Source: a virus (lineage: Duplodnaviria > Heunggongvirae > Uroviricota > Caudoviricetes). Taken from it: a DNA stretch of 13,704 bases. Under the pieces are notes generated by a model that saw nothing but the letters and a program-made list of their open reading frames with translations, was not told the origin of the DNA and ran no database searches. Positions 1-13,604 of the stretch are shown here, piece after piece; position 1 is the stretch's first letter, and every line of letters starts with the position of its first letter. Both the position numbers and the translations under genes were made by a program. Location of the stretch: positions 1 through 13,704 of the IMG/VR virus record IMGVR_UViG_2740892422_000001. One strand, written 5' to 3'.

Positions 1-20
1 CGAAGGTGAGTTGATGGCTC

Positions 21-332
21 ATGATGTCCCTCTGGGATGCGCTCCGGATGAATATGATGATCTCATATCAGGAACTTGTTCGCACCTTCCTTAACAAAAT
101 CGCAATGCTTGGAACTGAGAAGACAGCGGAAGCTGTGGGCGTTGATAAGTCGCAGATCAGCAGGTGGAAGAGGGACTGGATTCCAAAGTTCTCAATGCTG
201 CTTGCTGTTCTTGAATGGGGTGTCGTTGACGACGACATGGCTCGATTGGCACGACAAGTTGCTTCGATTCTCACCAATAAAAAACGCCCGGCGGCAACCG
301 AGCGTTCTGAACAAATCCAGATGGAATTCTGA
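21..332 (+). CDS. cII: cII-like transcriptional activator; C-terminal ~80 aa match lambda CII as I recall it, N-terminal ~23 aa unrelated
   Basis: ORF translation from LNKIAMLGTEKTAEAVGVDKSQISRWKRDWIPKFSMLLAVLEWGVVDDDMARLARQV...KKRPAATERSEQIQMEF matches lambda CII from memory, including the helix-turn-helix region. Upstream of ~nt 87 the DNA and the N-terminus MMSLWDALRMNMMISYQELVRTF do not match lambda. AGGTGA lies ~11 nt upstream of ATG 21. The true start is uncertain; in-frame ATGs also occur at 24, 48, 54 and 57. Confidence 0.7.
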   Translation: MMSLWDALRMNMMISYQELVRTFLNKIAMLGTEKTAEAVGVDKSQISRWKRDWIPKFSMLLAVLEWGVVDDDMARLARQVASILTNKKRPAATERSEQIQMEF

Positions 333-354
333 GGTCATTACTGGATCTATCAAC
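278..354 (-). ncRNA. oop: oop antisense RNA (lambda OOP), overlapping the 3' end of cII, with its intrinsic terminator
   Basis: Established lambda organisation: the 77-nt oop RNA is transcribed leftward from pO and overlaps the cII 3' end. On the - strand the GC-rich hairpin (RC of ~285-300, cggttgccgccgggcg) followed by a T-run (RC of 279-284) matches the known oop terminator. Coordinates are placed by offset from lambda and are approximate (+/- a few nt). Confidence 0.5.
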
Positions 355-359
355 AGGAG

Positions 360-392
360 TCATTATGACAAATACAGCAAAAATACTCAACT
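360..392 (-). promoter_or_regulatory. pO promoter for oop (-10 CATAAT, -35 TTGAGT on the - strand)
   Basis: Reverse complement of 355-395 reads ccgaagTTGAGTatttttgctgtatttgtCATAATgactcct: 17-nt spacer and -10 ending ~7 nt before the predicted oop 5' end. Consistent with the known lambda pO location at the start of O. Confidence 0.4.
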
Positions 393-1264
393 TCGGCCGA
401 GGTAACTTTGCCGGACAGGAGCGTAATGTGGCAGATCTCGATGATGGTTACGCCAGACTATCAAATATGCTGCTTGAGGCTTATTCAGGCGCAGATCTGA
501 CCAAGCGACAGTTTAAAGTGCTGCTTGCCATTCTGCGTAAAACCTATGGGTGGAATAAACCAATGGACAGAATCACCGATTCTCAACTTAGCGAGATTAC
601 AAAGTTACCTGTCAAACGGTGCAATGAAGCTAAGTTAGAACTCGTCAGAATGAATATTATCAAGCAGCAAGGCGGCATGTTTGGACCAAACAAAAACATC
701 TCAGAATGGTGCATCCCTCAAAACGAGGGAAAATCCCCTAAAACGAGGGATAAAACATCCCTCAAATTGGGGGATTGCTATCCCTCAAAACAGGGGGACA
801 CAAAAGACACTATTACAAAAGAAAAAAGAAAAGATTATTCGTCAGAGAATTCTGGCGAATCCTCTGACCAGCCAGAAAACGACCTTTCTGTGGTGAAACC
901 GGATGCTGCAATTCAGAGCGGCAGCAAGTGGGGGACAGCAGAAGACCTGACCGCCGCAGAGTGGATGTTTGACATGGTGAAGACCATCGCGCCATCAGCC
1001 AGAAAACCGAATTTTGCAGGGTGGGCTAACGATATCCGCCTGATGCGTGAACGTGACGGACGTAACCACCGCGACATGTGCGTGCTGTTCCGCTGGGCAT
1101 GCCAGGACAACTTCTGGTCCGGTAACGTGCTTAGCCCGGCCAAACTCCGCGACAAGTGGACCCAGCTCGAAATCAACCGTAACAAGCAACAGGCAGTCGT
1201 GACAGCCAGCAAACCAAAACTCGACCTGACAAACACAGACTGGATTTACGGGGTGGATCTATGA
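365..1264 (+). CDS. O: Replication initiation protein O (lambda gpO)
   Basis: 299-aa ORF matching lambda O from memory ([40 protein letters not shown]...TDWIYGVDL). RBS AGGAG upstream. Stop overlaps the next ATG (ATGA at 1261-1264) as in lambda O/P. Contains the ori iterons. Confidence 0.97.
713..840. repeat. ori-lambda: four ~19-bp iterons (each an internal inverted repeat tccctc...gaggga) followed by an AT-rich unwinding region
   Basis: Seen directly: catccctcaaaacgaggga (712-730), aatcccctaaaacgaggga (732-750), acatccctcaaattggggga (~754-773), tatccctcaaaacaggggga (~780-799), then A/T-rich caaaagacactattacaaaagaaaaaagaaaagattattc (800-840). This is the classical O-binding origin inside the O coding sequence. 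Confidence 0.9.
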
Positions 1265-2079
1265 AAAACATCGCCGCACAGATGGTTAACTTTGACCGTG
1301 AGCAGATGCGTAGGATCGCCAACAACATGCCGGAACAGTACGACGAAAAGCCGCAGGTAAGCCGTATTCTGGCGATTACGACAAGCGATGAGAAATGCCT
1401 GCAGACTGCATCCAGAGATGATTTGGCATCAAAACTGAAAACCGCCGGATATTCACGCAGTTTTATTCAGTATTCATCGGGTAATAAATACGCTGCGTTA
1501 TCTGCATTTGGCCGGGCATTCACGGTTAATTTCAATGGCAGTAATACCGCGATTACGCTCAAGTTTAAGCATGAGCCGGGGGTCGGGTATGAAACACTGA
1601 CAGTCAGCCAGGCATCGGCACTTGATGCAAAAAACTGCAATGTGTTCGTGTACTACCAGAATGATACAGCTATCCTCCAGCAGGGAGTGATGGCTAACGG
1701 CGATTTCTTTGATGAACGCCACGGCCTGGACTGGTTACAGAATTATGTGCAGACCAGCCTCTATAACCTGCTTTATACCAGCACCACGAAAGTTCCCCAG
1801 ACTGAAGCCGGTATTACCCGACTGTTATCAAATGTTGAAAAATCACTGGATCAGGCCGTTCAGAATGGACTGATTGCTCCGGGCGTATGGAACGGGGGCG
1901 ACCTTGGTCAGTTGTCATCAGGTGACACACTGCCCAAAGGTTATTACGTATACGCTCAGCCGCTGGATGAACAGGCTCAATCAGAACGTGAAGCCCGTAA
2001 GGCTCCGGTGATTCAGGCTGCAATAAAACTTGCAGGCGCGGTTCATTACGCTGACGTACAGATTAACGTTGTTCGCTAA
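1261..2079 (+). CDS. In-frame fusion ORF: lambda P N-terminal ~32 aa joined to the C-terminal ~240 aa of a tail-sheath-like protein
   Basis: First 32 aa ([33 protein letters not shown]) match lambda P; at nt ~1359 the sequence diverges and the remainder ([12 protein letters not shown]...[45 protein letters not shown]) resembles a C-terminal sheath domain by composition and by its position immediately upstream of a tube gene. Sheath proteins of this type are about twice this length, so the N-terminal half appears to be missing. The sheath assignment is from memory, not an alignment. Confidence 0.55.
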
Positions 2080-3174: not shown

Positions 3175-5152
3175 AACTATTAAAGATTTCCTCGTCTCGC
3201 TTGGCTTCAGTGTGGATGATGCAGGAGCGAAAAAGTTCGGTTCTGTCCTCGCCGGTACAACTGCAAATGTCATCAAAATGGGGCTGGCTGTTGAAGGAGC
3301 TGCGCTGTCCGTGGTGGCCTTCACGGCTAAGATCGCCTCCGGCCTGGATAATCTTTACTGGGCGTCACAGCGCACCGGCGCGACAGTCCAGGGAATTCAG
3401 TCTATTGGCTATGCGGTTTCGCAGGTTGGCGGCAGCGTGGACGCTGCGCGATCTTCTCTGGAAAGCCTCTCCCGGTTTATTCGTAACAATCCCGGTGCAG
3501 AAGGCTTTCTGAATCGCCTGGGCGTACAGACCCGTGATGCCAGCGGTAACATGCGTGACATGGCCGCTATTTTTACGGGCGTTGGACAGAAACTCAGCAG
3601 CATGCCGTATTACCGGGCTAACCAGTATGCGCAGATGCTGGGCATTGACGAAAATACCCTTATGGCGATGCGCCGGGGTGTGGGTGGCTTCTCCGGGCAG
3701 TACAGCGCAATGGCGAAAGCTATCGGCTTCAATGCTGACGAGGCGGCCAGAAGCTCCAACAAATTTATGACCTCCCTGCGTGAGTTTGGCGCGATGGCAG
3801 GCATGGCCCGTGACAAAATCGGCTCTAATCTTGCGGGGGGGCTTGCGGGTTCGCTGGACACCCTGCGCCGCCATATCCTGGACAACTTCCCTCGTATCGA
3901 GCAGACCCTGACGAAAGCCATAAAAGGCATTCTGGCGCTCGGGGATATTATCGGGCGGCTGTTCTTCAGACTGATTGAGGGGACATCAGGCCTTATCACC
4001 TGGTGGCAATCGCTGGATAAGCAAACGCGGGAGTTGATCTCGCTGTTTGGCGCACTGACGATTGCGCTGCGCATTCTGAACAGTACGTTCTGGATGTCGC
4101 CGATTGGCCTCATTACCGCGCTGGCGGCGGGTATTGCCCTCCTGTGGGAGGACTATCAGACCTGGAAGGAAGGCGGCGACAGCCTGATTGACTGGGGCAA
4201 GTGGAAACCGGAGGTCGATGCCGCGCTGAAGATGGTTCGTGACCTTAAAACGACCGTTAACGACCTGGTGAAAGCGCTGGCGAAACTGCTCAATATTGAC
4301 CCCAAATCATGGTCCCTGAAGTGGGATTTCAGCAACTTCATCGACCAGATGGGCGAATTCAGCAAAATGCTGAACATGATCGCTGACCTGCTCAACGCTA
4401 TCAAAGATGGCCGCTGGGCTGATGCCGTCAGCATCGGCAAACAGATACTTAATCAGGGCAGCGAAAATCCGTCAGCGATGCCGATGGTTACAGACAGCGC
4501 TAACAGTACTGCCGACTGGATTAAAGAGCACTGGGGATTAGATCCCCGCAGTGTGGGCCGGACGGTACGCGGCTGGTTTGGTGATGATGAGCCGGAACAA
4601 CATGCACAGGCTACGAAACGAGGAGAACGGAATAACAATCCGGGAAACCTTAATTTTGCTGGTCAGGCAGGGGCTTCTCTTGAACGCCCGGGCGGGCGAT
4701 TTGCCAGATTTGAAACTGCCTTTGATGGATTACGGGCTCTTGCTCGTCAGTTAATGCTGTACGCCGGACGGGGAATAAACAGTGTGGAGAAAATTATCTC
4801 TACCTGGGCACCTGCGTCTGATAATAACAACACAACTGCGTATATCAGGGCTGTATCGCAACGACTGGGAGTGGATCCCCGGGCTGCCCTGAATATGAGC
4901 GATCCGCAAACCATGTCAGCATTGATGAGCAGCATTATCCAGCATGAGAATGGAAGAAATATCTATTCTCGGGAGCTGATTAATAAGGCTGCCGTGGCGG
5001 GAATTAGTGGCAAAGTGACAGAGGTTAACCAGCAGAATACCTACCACATTTACGGTGGCGGAGATCCGCACGCTGTCGGTAATGAGGTTGCACGTCGGCA
5101 ACAGTCTGCAAATGCTCAGGTCATGCGAAGTAATCAGGTGAGGGTGGGTTAG
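3164..5152 (+). CDS. Tail tape measure protein
   Basis: Long ORF (662 aa from ATG 3164; an alternative ATG at 3143 lacks an RBS) directly downstream of the chaperone pair. GGAGAGAGG RBS. Alanine/glycine-rich helical N-terminal part, a hydrophobic segment (LISLFGALTIALRILNSTFWMSPIGLITALAAGIALLW) and a distinct C-terminal globular region. Position and composition are typical of a tape measure protein. Confidence 0.85.
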   Translation: MNAETIKDFLVSLGFSVDDAGAKKFGSVLAGTTANVIKMGLAVEGAALSVVAFTAKIASGLDNLYWASQRTGATVQGIQSIGYAVSQVGGSVDAARSSLESLSRFIRNNPGAEGFLNRLGVQTRDASGNMRDMAAIFTGVGQKLSSMPYYRANQYAQMLGIDENTLMAMRRGVGGFSGQYSAMAKAIGFNADEAARSSNKFMTSLREFGAMAGMARDKIGSNLAGGLAGSLDTLRRHILDNFPRIEQTLTKAIKGILALGDIIGRLFFRLIEGTSGLITWWQSLDKQTRELISLFGALTIALRILNSTFWMSPIGLITALAAGIALLWEDYQTWKEGGDSLIDWGKWKPEVDAALKMVRDLKTTVNDLVKALAKLLNIDPKSWSLKWDFSNFIDQMGEFSKMLNMIADLLNAIKDGRWADAVSIGKQILNQGSENPSAMPMVTDSANSTADWIKEHWGLDPRSVGRTVRGWFGDDEPEQHAQATKRGERNNNPGNLNFAGQAGASLERPGGRFARFETAFDGLRALARQLMLYAGRGINSVEKIISTWAPASDNNNTTAYIRAVSQRLGVDPRAALNMSDPQTMSALMSSIIQHENGRNIYSRELINKAAVAGISGKVTEVNQQNTYHIYGGGDPHAVGNEVARRQQSANAQVMRSNQVRVG

Positions 5153-5739
5153 TGGATATTCTCTCTACACTTTTTCATCAGCAGAGCAGAAAAATAGGAA
5201 TGATTGTTCCCAGTGTTGTTATTTCAGAGAAGCATACAGATATGCTTGAAATAACCGAGCATCCGGTAGAGGTCGGGGCCGCTGTCGCTGATCATGCCTA
5301 TAAAAAACCGTCAGAAGTGGTGATGGAGGTTGGTTTCGCCGGTGGCGGCGCATTGCTGGATTTTGCCAGTAACCTGACGGCTACCAGCCTGCTCGGCCTG
5401 AGTCCTCAGCAGACGTATCAGGAGCTACTGGATCTGCAGGAAAGCCGTATCCCCTTCGATGTGGTAACCGGTAAACGGCTGTACAGCAACATGTTGATCC
5501 GGGCGCTGGAAGTGACGACGGACAAGACAACCGAAAACGTCCTGTCCGCCGTCCTCACCCTGAGGGAGGTCATTATCTCCCGGACACAGCAGATTACCGT
5601 CGCGGATAAAACCAACATGAAGGAAGGGGCCAGCACGTCGGCGGTACAGAACAGCGGCAACAAAACCACAAAACCTCCAGATACTTCACTGCTGAAAAGC
5701 ATCACGGGTAACGTGGCGTCATTACTGGGGGGCGGCTAA
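5152..5739 (+). CDS. Tail/baseplate protein, family not resolved
   Basis: 195-aa ORF with GTG start overlapping the tape measure stop (TAGTG), RBS GGTGAGGGTGG. It sits between tape measure and hub genes where Mu-like modules carry distal tail proteins. Assignment by synteny only. Confidence 0.45.
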   Translation: MDILSTLFHQQSRKIGMIVPSVVISEKHTDMLEITEHPVEVGAAVADHAYKKPSEVVMEVGFAGGGALLDFASNLTATSLLGLSPQQTYQELLDLQESRIPFDVVTGKRLYSNMLIRALEVTTDKTTENVLSAVLTLREVIISRTQQITVADKTNMKEGASTSAVQNSGNKTTKPPDTSLLKSITGNVASLLGGG

Positions 5740-6043: not shown

Positions 6044-7105
6044 ATGTCACAGAACTGGATGAGACATTTCGAGCTGCAGCTTGTGGACGGGAACGGTCAG
6101 GGAATTGAGCTAAGTGATTTTAAAGTCACCTTTACGATCGACTGGTTCAACATCAGCAGCGCGTCCCGGGTAGGGACTATCAAAATTTATAACCTCTCGG
6201 CAGATACTGTGAACCGAATCACCGGGCAGGAGTTTTCGAAAGTGCGTCTGATTGCCGGTTACGACGGTATCGCGCCGGAGGTGTCGGCAAGCGACGTCGG
6301 GACCGTGCGGGAAGTTGACGCGGCGGACGTGGGTCAGAGTGATGGCCGCAACTACGGACTGATTTTCAGCGGTGAAATTCGCTACTCGGTCACAGGAAAA
6401 GACAGTCCGGTTGATTCCTACGTCCTGATTCAGGCAGCAGATACTGATCTGGCTTTTGCCACCAGTATAACCTCACAGACGCTGGCTGCCGGTTACACGG
6501 TCGCTGATGTAAACCGTGCGCTGATGAAAGACTTCGAAGCCAAAGGCGCGACCGAAGGCCTGACGCCTGAAATGCCTGCTACTGTATTCCCCCGGGGGCG
6601 GGTACTCTTTGGCATGACGCGGCATCTAATGGATAACGTAGCCGGGCAATGTGGCGCAACATGGCAATTCGTGGACGGTCAGCGCCAGATGGTGGCGAAT
6701 AACGAATATGTTCATGAAGCGATTGTGCTCAACAGCGCTACCGGGCTTATTGGCATGCCGCAGCAGACTATCGGTAACGGCGTAAACGTCCGCGCGCTTA
6801 TTAATCCGAACATCCGGGTTAACGGACTTATTCAGCTGGATCAGGCTTCCGTGTATCGTACCGCCTTGTCGAACAACGATATTGCGATGGCTGGTGGTCA
6901 GATCACCGACCAGAACACGGATGGAAATATCACGCTAAGCGGCACCACATCGCAGCCTGCCAGCATCGCAACGGATGGCGTTTATATTGTGCGCGGGATT
7001 ATGTACACTGGCGACACAAGGGGCCAGGCGTGGTACATGGATATGATGTGCGAAGCGCGTGGCGCGGCGGATCTGTATACGCGATCGGCTTTGCAAAGGG
7101 GATGA
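6044..7105 (+). CDS. Baseplate hub-like protein (Mu gpP / P2 gpD-like by position and size)
   Basis: 353-aa ORF, RBS ACGGAG, located after the tape measure and distal tail proteins and before the spike and wedge genes. Family assignment is inferred from synteny and size. Confidence 0.5.
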   Translation: MSQNWMRHFELQLVDGNGQGIELSDFKVTFTIDWFNISSASRVGTIKIYNLSADTVNRITGQEFSKVRLIAGYDGIAPEVSASDVGTVREVDAADVGQSDGRNYGLIFSGEIRYSVTGKDSPVDSYVLIQAADTDLAFATSITSQTLAAGYTVADVNRALMKDFEAKGATEGLTPEMPATVFPRGRVLFGMTRHLMDNVAGQCGATWQFVDGQRQMVANNEYVHEAIVLNSATGLIGMPQQTIGNGVNVRALINPNIRVNGLIQLDQASVYRTALSNNDIAMAGGQITDQNTDGNITLSGTTSQPASIATDGVYIVRGIMYTGDTRGQAWYMDMMCEARGAADLYTRSALQRG

Positions 7106-7108
7106 GCA

Positions 7109-7450
7109 ATGAGGGGTATTATTTTTCTGTTAGCTGTCTTTTCTGCGTGCAGCGCGTGGGCGGATGGCTTCACGGTTAAATGCGGTGGCTACACTATGGT
7201 TGCAAACCAGGGCGAGTTATCGACTATCAACGGTGAAAGAGTTACCTCTCAAAAAATCACCGAACTGGGTACCAATGGTTTGAAAGTAGACATGGGGCTT
7301 ATGCCTGCCAAAGACGGTAACAACTACGGCTTTGAATACATTCGTCGCCCTGGTACCGAAACGCGATTCCTGAATGTCCAGCTTCTGCAGAACAGCATGG
7401 ATGCGCCGAAAATCATCGGATCTTTCCCTTGTAAAAAAGTGGCTGGGTGA
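7109..7450 (+). CDS. Small secreted protein or lipoprotein (113 aa) with N-terminal signal peptide; accessory (moron-like) gene
   Basis: N-terminus MRGIIFLLAVFSACSAWADG has a positive n-region, a hydrophobic core and an AWA-like signal peptidase I site; an alternative lipobox-like FSAC is present. The start is coupled to the hub gene stop (RBS GGGGATGAG). GC content looks lower than in the flanking tail genes. No structural-protein counterpart is expected at this position. Confidence 0.6.
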   Translation: MRGIIFLLAVFSACSAWADGFTVKCGGYTMVANQGELSTINGERVTSQKITELGTNGLKVDMGLMPAKDGNNYGFEYIRRPGTETRFLNVQLLQNSMDAPKIIGSFPCKKVAG

Positions 7451-7476
7451 AGGTAACCTGAAATTCGTAACGCCTG

Positions 7477-7515
7477 AAAAACAACAAAATGTGCTCTAAA
7501 AACTGTTGTTTTTTG
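7477..7515 (+). terminator. AT-rich hairpin followed by a T-run (weak intrinsic-terminator-like element or regulatory inverted repeat)
   Basis: Perfect 10-bp inverted repeat aaaaacaaca (7477-7486) / tgttgttttt (7504-7513) with a 17-nt loop and trailing T-run, 27 nt after the signal-peptide gene stop. The stem is A/T-only, so terminator strength is doubtful. Confidence 0.3.
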
Positions 7516-7543
7516 AGACGAGCGATTACACTGCACTGACTTT

Positions 7544-7572
7544 TTGATGGTGGATTGCCATCGATATGCTAC
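7544..7572 (+). promoter_or_regulatory. Candidate sigma70-like promoter for the two-gene cassette
   Basis: TTGATG (7544-7549), 15-nt spacer, TATGCT (7565-7570) in the 150-bp intergenic region; AGGA RBS ~12 nt before ATG 7600. This is a weak match to consensus and is a prediction only. Confidence 0.25.
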
Positions 7573-7599
7573 TTCATTAAAGCCAGGAATAACTAAAAC

Positions 7600-8331
7600 A
7601 TGAGTTTAGCGCAGCCAAAATCAGGAGAACTGTTAGATCTTCTGACTCCTTCATTAACTAAGGGTGAAAACCTTCTGAGTGAGTTTGAAATCCATCGAAT
7701 CATTCGTGAAGCGAAGAAACTACCTGAACGTTATCAGGGGCTATCAATTGAAGGCTTAGCTAAGCTTGTTCTTGGTGAAATAGATGAAGGATGTTCACTC
7801 TGTGAGCGGGGGTTGAGAATAGCGCCTAACGATCCAGTTTCTTTTTGTAACTATACGATTGCGCTGCGTAACTTAGGTTTGCATGCTCGCCAGTATGTGA
7901 TGATTCAGAAAGCATCTGATTCACTTAATCCAACGATATTGGCTGAGGTTGCTACAATTTCTGCATACTGGGTTGATATCGATTTGCTTGAAAAGGTGAT
8001 GCCGATGCTAACTGCAATGGAAGTACCGCGCCCTGAAGATATGGGCAAATGGTATGACACGCTCAATTATCTGCATACCCAAAAAGATCATGCTCAGGAG
8101 CTAAAAACTATTGGGCGGCTCATGATGAACGTTGCAGAAAAGTACCGCGCTCGTCTTGCTGGCGCTCATGCTTTTTATGTAATGTCAGAACTTGATACGC
8201 TGTTCGTTGAAGTCAAAACAGACGATCCAGTGCTTCTTTCGCAGATGAATAATGCCTTGGCTGATGAGATTATTATTGCGGGGCTTGCGGATTCAGAATG
8301 CGTCGGATGCTTTGAAGCCGGGGAACTCTAA
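7600..8331 (+). CDS. Hypothetical protein A of the accessory two-gene cassette (243 aa); TPR-like helical repeat signature and two CxxC pairs
   Basis: ORF with AT-richer codon usage than the flanking tail genes. ERGLRIAPNDPVSFCNYTIALRNLGLHARQYVMIQKA fits a TPR-like consensus. CSLC near residue 65 and CVGC near the C-terminus could form a Zn site. No recognisable phage structural family. Confidence 0.7.
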   Translation: MSLAQPKSGELLDLLTPSLTKGENLLSEFEIHRIIREAKKLPERYQGLSIEGLAKLVLGEIDEGCSLCERGLRIAPNDPVSFCNYTIALRNLGLHARQYVMIQKASDSLNPTILAEVATISAYWVDIDLLEKVMPMLTAMEVPRPEDMGKWYDTLNYLHTQKDHAQELKTIGRLMMNVAEKYRARLAGAHAFYVMSELDTLFVEVKTDDPVLLSQMNNALADEIIIAGLADSECVGCFEAGEL

Positions 8332-8759
8332 TGTCGGTTGAGCATACCTGTTTTCTTGAATTGGCTAAGCATTCCCTGGCTCTAAACGGTGAGATGTGGA
8401 CGAGAAATGCTATTAGCCGAGCATACTATGGTATGTACCATTCCGCCTTACGGATCACCAACAATCTGGTACCGACCGCTACACAAGATGGTGAAAAACT
8501 AAAAGGTGGAGTTCACATGCGAGTCTATACGGCCTTTTGTAGTGGTGAGGCAGCTGCACTTAACGATGTTGATGTTAACGCAGTAAAGAAAATCGGCGTT
8601 AAACTGAAAATGACGCATGCCCAACGTGTTAATTCTGATTACAAGCTTGAGCGGAAAATCAACCGGATTACCGCGAGAAGTGTAATTCTGGATGCGGAAG
8701 AGGTCGATGCAATCGTTAATCAATTACTGAAGATTGGTGATGACTCGTTAACTGCATAA
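8331..8759 (+). CDS. Hypothetical protein B of the accessory two-gene cassette (142 aa); small helical protein with an R-x6-H segment (HEPN-like possibility, unverified)
   Basis: ATG overlaps the stop of protein A (TAATG), RBS GGGGAA, so the two are translationally coupled. Segment NAISRAYYGMYHSALRI contains R-x6-H and resembles the first helices of HEPN-type domains, but the canonical motif placement is not confirmed. Followed by a strong terminator. Confidence 0.7.
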   Translation: MSVEHTCFLELAKHSLALNGEMWTRNAISRAYYGMYHSALRITNNLVPTATQDGEKLKGGVHMRVYTAFCSGEAAALNDVDVNAVKKIGVKLKMTHAQRVNSDYKLERKINRITARSVILDAEEVDAIVNQLLKIGDDSLTA

Positions 8760-8779
8760 GCTGAAATTTCTCAAAATTC

Positions 8780-8808
8780 AAACCCGCCACTTGGCGGGTT
8801 TTTTGCTT
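8780..8808 (+). terminator. Rho-independent terminator closing the accessory cassette
   Basis: GC-rich stem aaacccgcc (8780-8788) / ggcgggttt (8793-8801) with a 4-nt loop, followed by tttttgctttc. It lies 21 nt after the protein B stop and immediately before the RBS (GGAG) of the spike gene. Confidence 0.75.
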
Positions 8809-8823
8809 TCTGGAGCCTACTAA

Positions 8824-9576
8824 ATGGCAGTATCTGACCAGACCCGCAGCGGCGACCTTGCCGAAACATTTAAATCTGAACGGGAAACAACAAAGAACCA
8901 GATCCGTGTCGCCTTGCCTGGCATTGTTCAGTCATTCGCTCCTGATGCGGTGACGGCGGTTGTACAGCCTGCTATCCGTTACGTTGAAATTGATAACGAC
9001 GGCAACCGCATTACCAAAAATTACCCATTGCTGGTGGATGTGCCAGTGGTATTCCCGCGTGGCGGAGGCTGTACGCTAACGTTTCCAGTTAAAGCCGGTG
9101 ATGAATGTTTGGTGATTTTTGCCGATCGTTGTATTGATTTCTGGTGGCAGAGTGGCGGGATACAGGAGCCGGTCGATGACAGAATGCATGATTTATCGGA
9201 TGCGTTTTGTATTGTCGGTCCCCAGTCGCAGGCAAGGAAGATTAGCGGTATTAATACCAGTGCCACACAGTTGCGTAGTGATGACGGCAGCACCTATTTT
9301 GAGCTTAATCCTGATACCAGGAAAATTAAAATTGTCGCTCCGGGTGGTCTTGATGTGGTTGCCCCTCTGGCTGATTTTTCTGAGAAAGTAACCATTCATG
9401 GCCTGTTAACCTGGATGGGGGGCATGGTGGGGTCTGTTGTTTCTGGTGTGGCTTCAAAAATCACTGGTGTTGTTGAGTTTTTGGGTAGCGTGAAGGCTAA
9501 CGGCAAGCCAATCGATAATACGCACACTCATGGTGGTGTTCAGCGCGGTGGAAGCAGTACCGACGGGGTAAACTGA
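8824..9576 (+). CDS. Baseplate spike protein (gpV / Mu gp45-like)
   Basis: 250-aa ORF. The C-terminal region contains HTHGG (an HxH motif typical of the metal-binding spike apex of gpV/gp5-type proteins). Position is immediately upstream of gp25/W-like and baseplate J genes. Confidence 0.75.
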   Translation: MAVSDQTRSGDLAETFKSERETTKNQIRVALPGIVQSFAPDAVTAVVQPAIRYVEIDNDGNRITKNYPLLVDVPVVFPRGGGCTLTFPVKAGDECLVIFADRCIDFWWQSGGIQEPVDDRMHDLSDAFCIVGPQSQARKISGINTSATQLRSDDGSTYFELNPDTRKIKIVAPGGLDVVAPLADFSEKVTIHGLLTWMGGMVGSVVSGVASKITGVVEFLGSVKANGKPIDNTHTHGGVQRGGSSTDGVN

Positions 9577-11805: not shown

Positions 11806-12599
11806 TGGCGAAAAATGACTTTAAAGCGTTTGCAACGGATCGAAATGCCAATGTTATATCGCAGGAGGAATGGGAAGCGTTGCCCGCGCTTTTATCTGGA
11901 TTTACAGCAGGGAAAGCCTCCAGTGCGCAAGTCAATAAGGTTATTCGGCAGGCCAGCTTTATTGCTGCAGCTCTGGCCCAGTTTGTAAGTGACAAAACGC
12001 AACGGGATGTACTTGATAATGGTGATCTGCCCGGTTTTGTTGAATTGCTGGGATCGGGGTTTGCTGTTGAATACCTGAGCCGCAAGAATCCGTTTGGCGA
12101 TATCAAATCGGACGGCACGGTGAAAACGGCTCTCGAAAACCTTGGTTTGGGAGAAGGTGCTCCAGCTATTGGCGTTCCGTTCTTCTGGCCCTCCGCGGCA
12201 ATGCCAAATACTGTAATCGACAGCTGGTCCGGTATGGTGTTTTTGAAGTTCAACGGGGCGAAATTTTCTGCCTCTGATTACCCTGTGCTGGCGAAAGTGT
12301 TTCCTTCGCTGGTATTACCTGAAGCCCGCGGTGATTTCATTCGTATCTGGGATGATGGGCGAGGGGCGGACAGTGGGCGAGCATTATTAAGCTGGCAGGC
12401 AGCAACAGCTTTATCGCAATTTGGCGGTAATTATCCAGAAGGGTCCGGCCATGCGATTGCTGATTACGATGGAATATCAGCACACCAACCAGGTTTCTCT
12501 CGATTTCAGTACACCAGTAACTCAGTAGGAGATGGTGTTAATTTTATTGCCGTCAGACCACGTAACATTGCATTTAACTTTCTGGTGAGGGCTAAATAA
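11805..12599 (+). CDS. Tail fiber protein (constant N-terminal part plus variable C-terminal part)
   Basis: ATG at 11805 overlaps the upstream stop (TGATG) and has GGGGAG ~10 nt upstream; the ORF track's 11787 start lacks RBS spacing. It is followed immediately by a tail fiber assembly gene coupled by TAATG. A hix/gix-like site lies at codons ~109-117. Confidence 0.75.
12131..12156. other. Candidate Gin/Hin/Pin-family invertase crossover site inside the tail fiber gene
   Basis: Sequence ctctcGAAAACCttGGTTTggGAgAA is an imperfect palindrome closely resembling hixL (TTCTTGAAAACCAAGGTTTTTGATAA) and gix as recalled; about 19 of 24 half-site positions match hixL. Its placement inside the fiber gene upstream of the fiber-assembly pair matches Mu G and P1 C segment architecture. 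Confidence 0.4.
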
Positions 12600-13192
12600 T
12601 GAAACCTGTTTTTGATGAAAATGGACTGGCTACAGTGCCGGGTGATATGCGTTGTTTTTATTATGATGCAGTAACGTATGAATATACGGGCTGGTCTGAT
12701 GAATATATTAATACTGGTGTAAGTATGCCCGCCTGTTCCACTGGTATTGACCCTGGCGAAAACATTCCGGGAAAAGTGGCTGTATTTACAGGTAAGGGAT
12801 GGAGCCATGAAGAGGACCATCGCAATGAGACTGTTTACTCAATCGAAAATGGCGCAGCTGTTACAGTGGATTATATCGGTGCCATCAAAAACGGTTATGT
12901 CACGCTTTCACCGTTAACGCCATATGATAAATGGGATGGTGAGAAATGGGTGACAGATACTGAGGCACAACACAGTGCCGCAGTAGAAGCGGCAGAAGCA
13001 CAGCGCCAGTCACTGATTGATGCAGCAATGGCTTCCATTAGTCTGATTCAGCTGAAATTACAGGCCGGGCGGAAACTGACGCAGGCAGAAACAACCCGGC
13101 TTAACGCTGTGCTGGATTACATTGACGCGGTGACGGCAACAGATACCAGCACCGCGCCGGATGTCATCTGGCCTGAACTGCCGGAGGCGTAG
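12599..13192 (+). CDS. Tail fiber assembly protein (Tfa / Mu U-like)
   Basis: 197-aa ORF. The C-terminus LNAVLDYIDAVTATDTSTAPDVIWPELPEA carries the conserved C-terminal motif of the tail-fiber-assembly family. Start coupled to the tail fiber stop. Confidence 0.8.
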   Translation: MKPVFDENGLATVPGDMRCFYYDAVTYEYTGWSDEYINTGVSMPACSTGIDPGENIPGKVAVFTGKGWSHEEDHRNETVYSIENGAAVTVDYIGAIKNGYVTLSPLTPYDKWDGEKWVTDTEAQHSAAVEAAEAQRQSLIDAAMASISLIQLKLQAGRKLTQAETTRLNAVLDYIDAVTATDTSTAPDVIWPELPEA

Positions 13193-13604
13193 GCCATTCA
13201 ATATCTGGCGCACCGGAAGTATCGACCAGCTCCAGTGCGTCCAGATAATCCAGCCACAAATTATATTGCGCCAGTTCCTCACCTTTCAGGCGACCAATCG
13301 CCGCTTTACCAGGCCATTGTTTACTGTTCATATAATCGTTGGCCTGATTAATCAGTTGCTGCTTTTCCAGTTCGGCTGCAGCAATCTGTTCCTCATGTGT
13401 TGGTGGTGGAATTTCAGACCATGCAGGAAAACCATTTTCTCCAGCGATACGGATTTTTCCTTTCGGCGGTAATCCGGAAAACTCAATATACACCTGCTCA
13501 TCAACTTCGACAGCATCATCTGGCCATGAGTCAGCTTGAATGTAATCCTCTTTCATCTCCAGCGGATAGAAAGAGTTTGTAGTCGCGGAATATATGTAAT
13601 TCAT
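13164..13604 (-). CDS. Alternative tail fiber assembly protein (Tfa', Mu U'-like) on the opposite strand
   Basis: 146-aa - strand ORF whose C-terminus (NLWLDYLDALELVDTSGAPDIEWPTPPAVQAR) carries the same family motif as the + strand Tfa. Its 3' end overlaps the + strand tfa 3' end by 29 bp (convergent). Confidence 0.8.
   Translation of the reverse strand: MNYIYSATTNSFYPLEMKEDYIQADSWPDDAVEVDEQVYIEFSGLPPKGKIRIAGENGFPAWSEIPPPTHEEQIAAAELEKQQLINQANDYMNSKQWPGKAAIGRLKGEELAQYNLWLDYLDALELVDTSGAPDIEWPTPPAVQAR

What the first reader, a model, noticed from the sequence alone, without database searches (positions are those of the whole stretch)
7109..7515. Signal-peptide (possibly lipoprotein) gene embedded in the tail operon
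A 113-aa ORF with a clear N-terminal signal peptide (MRGIIFLLAVFSACSAWA) is coupled to the hub gene and followed by an A/T-only hairpin with a T-run. Secreted or lipoprotein morons in prophage tail regions often act in superinfection exclusion by blocking an outer-membrane receptor (as with Cor/Llp-type proteins), or serve as host-fitness factors. Together with the cassette it forms a ~1.7 kb accessory island.
Basis: partly seen in the sequence, partly recalled or inferred. Interest (0 to 1): 0.5.

Follow-up and report, generated by a model that had tools for sequence, protein, structure and literature searches.

The report
Exported small protein gene after tail hub
This is a real prophage gene for a small protein exported to the space between the two bacterial membranes; it is not a lipoprotein or a free-standing add-on gene but a widely conserved, fast-evolving, uncharacterised passenger of one type of contractile phage tail operon, and it probably acts against incoming phages.

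Summary
ORF 7109-7450 is real. It encodes a 113-aa precursor with a signal peptide (cleavage AWA|DG) and a 95-aa mature protein with two invariant cysteines, modelled with high confidence as a small eight-stranded beta-barrel.

It belongs to an uncharacterised family restricted to Enterobacterales prophages (phrog_3443; PGAP name "STY1065/STY2022 family phage-derived protein"). The lipoprotein idea fails: Cys14 is not conserved, and only 7 of 182 relatives have a lipobox-like motif.

It is not a classic moron. There is no promoter or convincing terminator. Its start lies within -11 to +7 nt of the hub stop in 58 of 63 loci. It follows the hub in 60 of 73 species-level loci.

It is not structural either. 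Five related tail modules join hub directly to spike, seven carry unrelated exported proteins or lipoproteins in its place, and the solved phiTE baseplate has no such component. It is under purifying selection (dN/dS 0.15) but changes about four times faster than the hub, and one locus holds five tandem copies.

The hairpin belongs to the downstream 243+142-aa cassette, which is separate, swappable cargo.

My best inference, untested, is periplasmic superinfection exclusion aimed at the tail tip of incoming phages, not Cor/Llp-type receptor masking.

The parts
6044..7105 (+). Baseplate hub gene (353 aa); upstream partner to which the target is translationally coupled
   Evidence: phrog_196 baseplate hub 1.2e-88; weak Pfam E217_GP41 match, 6.2e-05; stop codon at 7103-7105.
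7096..7102 (+). Shine-Dalgarno-like AAGGGGA, ending 6 nt before the ATG, inside the last codons of the hub gene
   Evidence: Read directly from the sequence.
7109..7162 (+). Signal peptide MRGIIFLLAVFSACSAWA, predicted signal peptidase I cleavage after A18
   Evidence: The n/h/c layout and a small-x-small site are conserved by property in 179-181 of 182 relatives. Cys14 is not conserved.
7163..7450 (+). Mature 95-aa protein (10.3 kDa, pI 8.7) plus stop codon; eight-stranded beta-barrel with two invariant Cys (mature C7 and C90)
   Evidence: AlphaFold2 pLDDT 90.5, pTM 0.80. Invariant columns C7 G8 N23 Q30 G56 L70 N71 V72 M79 C90 across 58 sequences. phrog_3443 8.4e-48. Median dN/dS 0.15.
7474..7517 (+). 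Weak A/U-rich hairpin with a 17-nt loop; part of the cassette's upstream spacer, not a demonstrated terminator of the target gene
   Evidence: z-score -1.39. Missed by the terminator scan. Co-inherited with the cassette, with an uncompensated mismatch in L009/L010, and absent in L008.
7600..8759 (+). Separate cargo module in slot 2: overlapping 243-aa and 142-aa genes, GC 0.44
   Evidence: phrog_22649 and phrog_5176. Weak TPR and weak HEPN_IX matches. Replaced elsewhere by DUF4282, YafO, Phd/Fic, membrane proteins or other secreted proteins.
8780..8811 (+). Terminator-like site closing the island (9-bp stem, 6 GC pairs, T-run)
8824..9576 (+). Membrane-puncturing central spike gene; downstream border of the island
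   Evidence: Spike N-terminal Pfam domain 3.6e-43 and GpV Apex motif; annotation.

Best explanation
Shown:
- ORF 7109-7450 is a functional gene of an uncharacterised, Enterobacterales-prophage-restricted family (phrog_3443; PGAP 'STY1065/STY2022 family phage-derived protein').
- The product has a Sec-type signal peptide cut by signal peptidase I. It matures to a ~10 kDa all-beta barrel with two invariant cysteines lying in the first and last barrel strands.
- The gene occupies the first position of an accessory slot between the hub and spike genes of the phiTE/SEN34-type contractile tail operon. Its start is tightly coupled to the hub stop, so it is made with the late tail proteins.
- It is not part of the virion architecture.

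Inferred:
- The two cysteines probably form a disulfide that closes the barrel.
- The protein most likely works in the periplasm against incoming phages. It would bind or neutralise the tail-tip complex (hub, spike, tape-measure C-terminus) that enters the periplasm after sheath contraction. This would block penetration or DNA delivery and protect an already infected or lysogenic cell from superinfection and lysis from without.
- This is the logic of T4 Spackle or TP-J34 Ltp, achieved with an unrelated fold. It is not receptor masking by a Cor/Llp lipoprotein.
For: Export:
- Signal-peptide properties are conserved without sequence conservation.
- Two Cys are invariant across two clades only ~30% identical.
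- Some relatives are lipoprotein fusions carrying the same C-terminal domain (L033, L051).

Real gene: median dN/dS is 0.15, and the model is confident.

Conserved coupling: the start lies -11 to +7 nt from the hub stop in 58 of 63 loci.

Distribution (with L058 corrected):
- The family is in slot 1 in 60 of 73 species-level loci.
- 7 further loci carry unrelated exported proteins or lipoproteins in that position.
- So 67 of 68 occupied slots begin with an exported protein.

Not structural:
- Five loci join hub directly to spike.
- The phiTE baseplate comprises nine proteins, and the hub binds the puncture apparatus 1:1 (PMC11972413).

Conflict-type evolution:
- dN is about four times that of the hub in matched pairs, and identity is 53-77% where hubs are 92-99% identical.
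- There are recombination breakpoints inside the gene.
- Five tandem paralogues occur in L057.
- Protein type tracks hub type best (Spearman 0.63, versus 0.10 for the plug).

Neighbourhood: the same island elsewhere carries a secreted protein matching 'superinfection exclusion Sie-like' phrog_8545 (2.8e-15) and toxin-antitoxin or HEPN-like cargo.
Against: - No functional homologue exists. Pfam, NCBIfam, PADLOC and a PDB profile search are empty.
- Coupling to a late gene and the absence of a promoter-like site mean a repressed lysogen may not express it. That is atypical for prophage exclusion genes.
- The tape-measure C-terminal NNPGN domain is present in 70 of 74 loci whatever occupies slot 1. 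There is therefore no specific pairing with that putative hydrolase.
- The hub correlation may simply reflect physical linkage.
- No paper mentions the family.
Confidence: 0.4

Rival explanations
1. It is a specific periplasmic inhibitor of a peptidoglycan hydrolase (PliC/MliC- or Spackle-like). It would neutralise the tape-measure protein's C-terminal muramidase/transglycosylase-like domain of incoming phages. This is a narrower version of the best explanation.
For: - The tape-measure protein is annotated as a lytic transglycosylase in relatives.
Against: - There is no PF09864 hit.
- I do not see the PliC/MliC loop motifs, as I recall them, in the sequence.
- The tape-measure C-terminal domain is present in 70 of 74 loci regardless of slot-1 content, including 13 loci without the family.
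Confidence: 0.15
2. It is a late lytic-cycle helper for egress. This periplasmic protein would tune lysis timing or stop progeny from wasting themselves on infected cells and debris.
For: - Obligatory co-expression with late tail genes through a coupled start, and no promoter-like site.
- Conserved across hosts with very different lifestyles.
Against: - It lies far from any lysis cassette.
- A soluble periplasmic protein cannot easily mask a surface receptor.
- Replacement by unrelated exported families and a five-copy tandem array fit an arms race better than housekeeping lysis control.
Confidence: 0.15
3. It is a receptor-masking outer-membrane lipoprotein of the Cor/Llp kind.
For: - This allele has an FSAC motif at residues 11-14.
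- Rare relatives are true lipoprotein fusions (L033, L051).
Against: - Cys14 is not conserved, and only 7 of 182 relatives have a lipobox-like motif.
- An A-x-A-type site is conserved instead.
- There is no similarity to any known exclusion family.
- The gene sits by the hub and spike, not by the fibre or receptor-binding genes.
Confidence: 0.08
4. It is a host-fitness or lysogenic-conversion factor, such as a Bor/Lom-style envelope protein that benefits the bacterium.
For: - The protein is exported, sits in an accessory region, and is retained in a defective prophage.
Against: - No promoter is seen.
- The family spans enteric, plant-associated and insect-pathogenic genera while keeping the same position. 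That argues for a phage-centred role.
Confidence: 0.1
5. It is a tail structural or assembly component.
For: - Strong synteny and coupling with the hub gene.
- Its type co-varies with hub type.
Against: - A cleavable signal peptide removes it from the cytoplasm, where tails assemble.
- Five related modules lack any gene here, and seven have unrelated proteins.
- The solved phiTE baseplate has no such subunit.
Confidence: 0.04

Closest known systems
phrog_3443 / NCBI 'STY1065/STY2022 family phage-derived protein' (uncharacterised)
   Same: Full-length profile match (8.4e-48). A near-identical, syntenic CDS carries the PGAP name in NZ_CM148343 (the locus matches the window at 99.8% DNA identity). 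Same position after the hub in phages SEN34, Mulock, vB_EcoM-683R1 and ST340-VIM1phi10.1.
   Different: Nothing differs; this is the family it belongs to. The family has no assigned function or literature.
T4 Spackle (periplasmic superinfection-exclusion protein that inhibits the gp5 tail lysozyme)
   Same: Both are small, signal-peptide-bearing, phage-encoded periplasmic proteins made during the lytic programme. The proposed logic is the same: neutralise the tail tip of an incoming phage.
   Different: There is no sequence or fold relationship. From my own knowledge Spackle is helical, whereas this model is all-beta. No inhibitory activity has been shown here.
Cor (phi80/N15/T1) and Llp (T5) receptor-blocking lipoproteins
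   Same: They are phage-encoded envelope proteins located in or near tail gene regions and used for exclusion.
   Different: Those are lipoproteins that block FhuA and sit beside receptor-binding genes. This family lacks a conserved lipobox, sits beside the hub and spike, and shows no homology.
PliC/MliC periplasmic lysozyme inhibitors
Morons of lambdoid phages (lom, bor)
   Same: Accessory, non-structural genes embedded among late genes, with GC lower than the flanks (0.48 versus 0.545).
   Different: No promoter or terminator of its own. Its start is coupled to the hub stop, and it is conserved across a whole phage lineage.

Membership tests
phrog_3443 / STY1065-STY2022 family | Full-length profile match | tested here: met
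   phrog_3443 E 8.4e-48 over residues 2-112. The second clade (L007) also matches at 3.5e-42. The PGAP name sits on the near-identical, syntenic CDS in a locus 99.8% identical to the window. The NCBIfam release searched here gave no hit.
phrog_3443 / STY1065-STY2022 family | Position immediately downstream of the baseplate hub gene | tested here: met
   60 of 73 species-level loci and four sequenced phages.
Sec/signal peptidase I secreted protein | n/h/c signal peptide with small residues at -3 and -1, conserved by property | tested here: met
   The hydrophobic core reaches KD 2.0 or more in 181 of 182 relatives, and a small-x-small site is present in 179 of 182. These come from my own heuristic script. 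SignalP was not available.
Bacterial lipoprotein (Cor/Llp type) | Conserved lipobox with invariant +1 Cys | tested here: not met
   Cys14 is replaced in close relatives. A lipobox-like motif occurs in 7 of 182.
Bacterial lipoprotein (Cor/Llp type) | Homology to Cor or Llp, or to any annotated exclusion family | tested here: not met
   No hit in Pfam, NCBIfam or PADLOC, and the only PHROG hit has unknown function.
Bacterial lipoprotein (Cor/Llp type) | Blocks an outer-membrane receptor (adsorption defect) | not testable with these tools
   Needs adsorption and plaque assays.
Moron | Own promoter and terminator flanking the gene | tested here: not met
   No + strand promoter-like site in 6800-9000. 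The hairpin is not significant and belongs to the cassette. Hub stop to start spacing is 3 nt here and -11 to +7 nt in 58 of 63 loci.
Moron | Presence/absence polymorphism among otherwise related phages, and deviant base composition | tested here: inconclusive
   Absent from 5 distant modules and replaced in 7, but present in 60 of 73. GC is 0.482 versus 0.545 for the hub.
PliC/MliC lysozyme inhibitors | PF09864 profile match and conserved inhibitory loop motifs | tested here: not met
T4 Spackle | Sequence or fold homology to Spackle | tested here: not met
   No profile hit. The model is all-beta.
Baseplate structural protein | Present in virions or solved baseplates of the same architecture, and indispensable | tested here: not met
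   The phiTE baseplate's nine proteins do not include such a subunit. Hub abuts spike in L062, L078, L082, L083 and L084. Virion proteomics for this lineage was not available.

The most novel reading that the evidence does not exclude
The position right after the hub gene may be a dedicated 'exported-protein slot' in this tail lineage. 67 of 68 occupied slots begin with a secreted protein or lipoprotein drawn from at least four unrelated families. Its occupants would be a previously unrecognised class of periplasmic factors keyed to the hub/spike/tape-measure tip complex. They would intercept contracted tails inside the periplasm, giving self and kin exclusion or protection from lysis-from-without during the late phase. 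Their specificity would evolve together with hub type.
Probability: 0.2. Interest if true: 0.65.

Novelty: new variant of a known kind. Interest (0 to 1): 0.4.

Why it matters
Hundreds of E. coli, Klebsiella, Salmonella, Pantoea and Photorhabdus prophages carry this gene, yet it has no known function. If it blocks infection from inside the periplasm, it would be a new protein family for superinfection exclusion. It would also be a new determinant of phage susceptibility in clinically relevant Enterobacterales. The hub-spike junction would then be a predictable place to mine further envelope-acting anti-phage proteins and defence cargo. If not, the finding is still a clean reannotation: secreted, not a lipoprotein, not a moron, not structural.

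Tried and rejected
- Searches of Pfam, NCBIfam, PADLOC and a PDB sequence profile returned nothing for the target.
- Literature searches for STY1065/STY2022, SEN34/ST64B and periplasmic exclusion found nothing on this family.
- I tested whether slot-1 type pairs with the tape-measure C-terminal domain type. The domain is near-universal (70 of 74 loci), so the test is uninformative or negative. The identity-matrix version failed for lack of shared hits.
- An apparent hub-target fusion in L058 turned out to be a run of masked N bases.
- The window's hub and target are in the same reading frame, separated by TGA-GCA. I considered stop-codon readthrough and rejected it, because most relatives overlap in a different frame.
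- I considered a hub+target co-fold.

Full report
**The observation**

The window is an E. coli prophage tail region. The 2 kb around the finding is 100% identical to several complete E. coli chromosomes.

ORF 7109-7450 (+, ATG, 113 aa) is present as described. The hub gene (6044-7105; phrog_196 'baseplate hub' 1.2e-88) stops at 7103-7105. AAGGGGA lies at 7096-7102 and the ATG follows at 7109.

The N-terminus MRGIIFLLAVFSACSAWA has a basic n-region, a 10-residue hydrophobic core and A-W-A before D19. The distance from hub stop to spike start (8824) is 1,718 nt.

**Secreted protein or lipoprotein**

I collected 238 relatives and read their N-termini.

- Every full-length member has a signal peptide whose residues differ but whose properties are kept.
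- In 182 anchored sequences, the hydrophobic core reaches Kyte-Doolittle 2.0 or more in 181.
- A small-x-small site precedes the mature start in 179.
- Only 7 contain any lipobox-like motif.
- The would-be lipobox Cys14 of the window protein becomes Y, S, F or G in relatives 72-83% identical.

The family trait is therefore signal peptidase I cleavage and periplasmic release. SignalP and LipoP were not available, so this rests on comparative evidence and a heuristic script.

The mature protein is 95 aa, 10.3 kDa, pI 8.7. Two clades only ~30% identical share the invariant columns C7, G8, N23, Q30, G56, L70-N71-V72, M79 and C90.

**Structure**

AlphaFold2 on a 58-sequence alignment gives pLDDT 90.5 and pTM 0.80. 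The model is an all-beta up-and-down barrel. The two invariant cysteines lie in the first and last strands. A barrel-closing disulfide is my inference.

- Foldseek against PDB and BFVD finds nothing significant.
- Pfam, NCBIfam, PADLOC and a PDB profile search are empty.
- The only family match is phrog_3443, of unknown function (8.4e-48).
- PGAP names the near-identical, syntenic CDS in NZ_CM148343 'STY1065/STY2022 family phage-derived protein'.
- No paper mentions these names.

**Genomic context**

Homologues sit directly after the hub gene in these phages:

| Phage | Identity to the window protein |
|---|---|
| SEN34 | 70% |
| Mulock | 72% |
| vB_EcoM-683R1 | 55% |
| ST340-VIM1phi10.1 | 28% |

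I then fetched 78 species-level loci across Enterobacterales using a hub alignment (hub identity 39-97%) and scored what follows the hub. Of the 73 evaluable loci:

| Content after the hub | Loci |
|---|---|
| Family member first | 60 |
| Unrelated exported protein or lipoprotein first (L016, L026, L037, L038, L039, L074, L076) | 7 |
| Hub joined directly to spike (L062, L078, L082, L083, L084) | 5 |
| Disrupted | 1 |

- Two of the 60 family members are 288-296-aa lipoprotein fusions (L033, L051).
- One of the 60 is L058, where the apparent fusion to the hub is only a run of masked N bases.
- PSJ-32-1 (L006) also carries an unrelated exported protein in the first position.

So 67 of 68 occupied junctions begin with an exported protein. 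The gene alone is the minimal insert (L065, L066, L079). The start lies -11 to +7 nt from the hub stop in 58 of 63 loci, most often as ATGA or TAATG/TGATG overlaps. No + strand promoter-like site was found in 6800-9000. The gene is therefore a coupled member of the late tail operon, not a self-contained moron.

**Not structural**

A cleaved signal peptide removes the protein from the cytoplasm, where tails assemble. Five related modules lack any gene in this position. The solved baseplate of phiTE, which shares this tail type, consists of nine proteins, with the hub binding the puncture apparatus 1:1 and no such subunit (PMC11972413). The window's tube family is Phage_Tube_PhiTE in relatives.

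**Evolution**

- Median pairwise dN/dS is 0.15 (hub 0.064), so the gene is under purifying selection. In matched locus pairs its dN is about four times that of the hub (0.134 versus 0.033).
- Where hubs are 92-99% identical to the window, the protein is only 53-77% identical.
- E. coli genomes show breakpoints about 30 nt before the hub's end and about 117 nt into the gene.
- The conserved 3' half of the gene is shared between different 5' halves.
- Serratia aquatilis (L057) has five tandem paralogues.
- Protein type correlates best with hub type (Spearman 0.63), then spike (0.40), and hardly at all with the plug (0.10). Physical linkage could explain part of this.

**The hairpin and the cassette**

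The stem at 7474-7517 is A/U-rich with two C-G pairs and a 17-nt loop. It folds no better than shuffles (z -1.39) and fails the terminator scan.

The 149-nt spacer that contains it is co-inherited with the 243-aa gene in L009 and L010, where the stem has an uncompensated mismatch. It is absent where the cargo is DUF4282 (L008).

The 243+142-aa pair (GC 0.44; weak TPR and HEPN_IX matches) ends with a good terminator at 8780-8801. This second slot is variable. It holds DUF4282, a 190-aa gene plus a YafO toxin, Phd/Fic, single-pass membrane proteins, a HEPN-like protein, or other secreted families. One of these is a 246-aa secreted protein matching 'superinfection exclusion Sie-like' phrog_8545 (2.8e-15).

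The same cassette pairs with different slot-1 proteins, and an identical slot-1 protein pairs with different cargo. The '1.7 kb island' is therefore two independent modules.

**Mechanism**

What is shown is a periplasmic, non-structural, late-co-expressed, fast-diversifying protein that can be replaced by other exported proteins. The best-fitting role is envelope-level interference with incoming phage.

I favour action on the tail-tip complex that enters the periplasm after contraction, following the logic of T4 Spackle or TP-J34 Ltp. I do not favour receptor masking, because the protein is soluble, is not lipidated, and sits by the hub and spike rather than the fibre genes.

Evidence against this reading:
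- No homologue has a known function.
- No promoter for prophage-state expression was found.
- There is no specific pairing with the tape-measure C-terminal NNPGN domain, which is present in 70 of 74 loci whatever fills slot 1.

I put this explanation at 0.4. Rivals are a dedicated hydrolase inhibitor (0.15), a lysis or egress helper (0.15), a host-fitness factor (0.10), a Cor/Llp-type lipoprotein (0.08) and a structural or assembly role (0.04).

**Verdict**

The gene belongs to a catalogued but uncharacterised family. Set against known exclusion proteins, it is a new variant of a known kind. Interest is moderate at 0.4. The near-universal rule that an exported protein comes first after the hub is the most noteworthy result and is directly testable.

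Noticed in passing
window 1-2079: The left end is a lambda-like replication region: an O-like gene at 365-1264 and the first 33 aa of P. At about position 1357 it is joined in frame to the middle of the DUF3383 sheath gene (ORF 1261-2079). None of 5,426 complete E. coli genomes spans this junction. The prophage is therefore a head-less remnant or a chimeric join.
   Followed up: partly
window 7600-8811: Two overlapping genes of 243 aa (weak TPR match) and 142 aa (weak HEPN_IX match, E 0.009) have GC 0.44 and their own terminator at 8780-8801. The same slot in relatives holds Phd/Fic, YafO, DUF4282 or a HEPN-like gene. This looks like toxin-antitoxin or defence cargo of unknown function.
   Followed up: partly
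L057 5092-7745 (Serratia aquatilis): Five tandem paralogues of the target family, one truncated, follow the hub gene.
   Followed up: partly
L033 5099-5989; L051 5075-5941: These are 288-296-aa lipoproteins (lipobox VTGC or VAGC). They combine an unknown N-terminal 'YKKRPGW...DDC.TW' domain with a C-terminal copy of the target domain (phrog_3443 1.6e-34). L026 has the N-terminal domain without a detectable target domain.
   Followed up: partly
L006 4568-5032; L016 4493-4957; L037 5068-5616; L038 5071-5811; L039 5068-6207; L074 and L076 (80-81 aa): Where the family is absent, the first gene after the hub is still an exported protein or lipoprotein. At least three other families are involved, none with a Pfam, NCBIfam or PHROG match.
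   Followed up: partly
L011 5419-6159; L020 5422-6159: A second-slot 246-aa secreted protein (shown for L011; L020 carries a near-identical 245-aa ORF that was not scanned) has a tRNA_anti-like OB fold (2e-16) and matches phrog_8545 'superinfection exclusion Sie-like' (2.8e-15).
   Followed up: no
L014 5376-5735; L019 5430-5798; L076 5194-5535; L077 5349-5687: A further small secreted family with a 'DFF..HPEL' motif (phrog_13007 for L014, unknown function) recurs in the second slot.
   Followed up: no
window 12599-13604: Two tail-fibre assembly genes face each other and overlap at their 3' ends: 12599-13192 on the + strand and 13164-13604 on the - strand. This is the arrangement of an invertible host-range segment, and the window ends inside it. 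In the related locus L001 a gp53-like fibre fragment follows on the minus strand.
   Followed up: no
window 4600-5152: The tape-measure C-terminus carries an 'RNNNPGNL' domain that PGAP labels lytic transglycosylase in relatives. It is present in 70 of 74 related loci. L082 and L083 have a different C-terminal domain that looks NlpC/P60-like to me; I did not test this.
   Followed up: partly
L058 about 4970-5400: A 426-base run of N masks the hub 3' end and the target 5' end in this genome record. This creates a spurious hub-target fusion ORF.
   Followed up: yes
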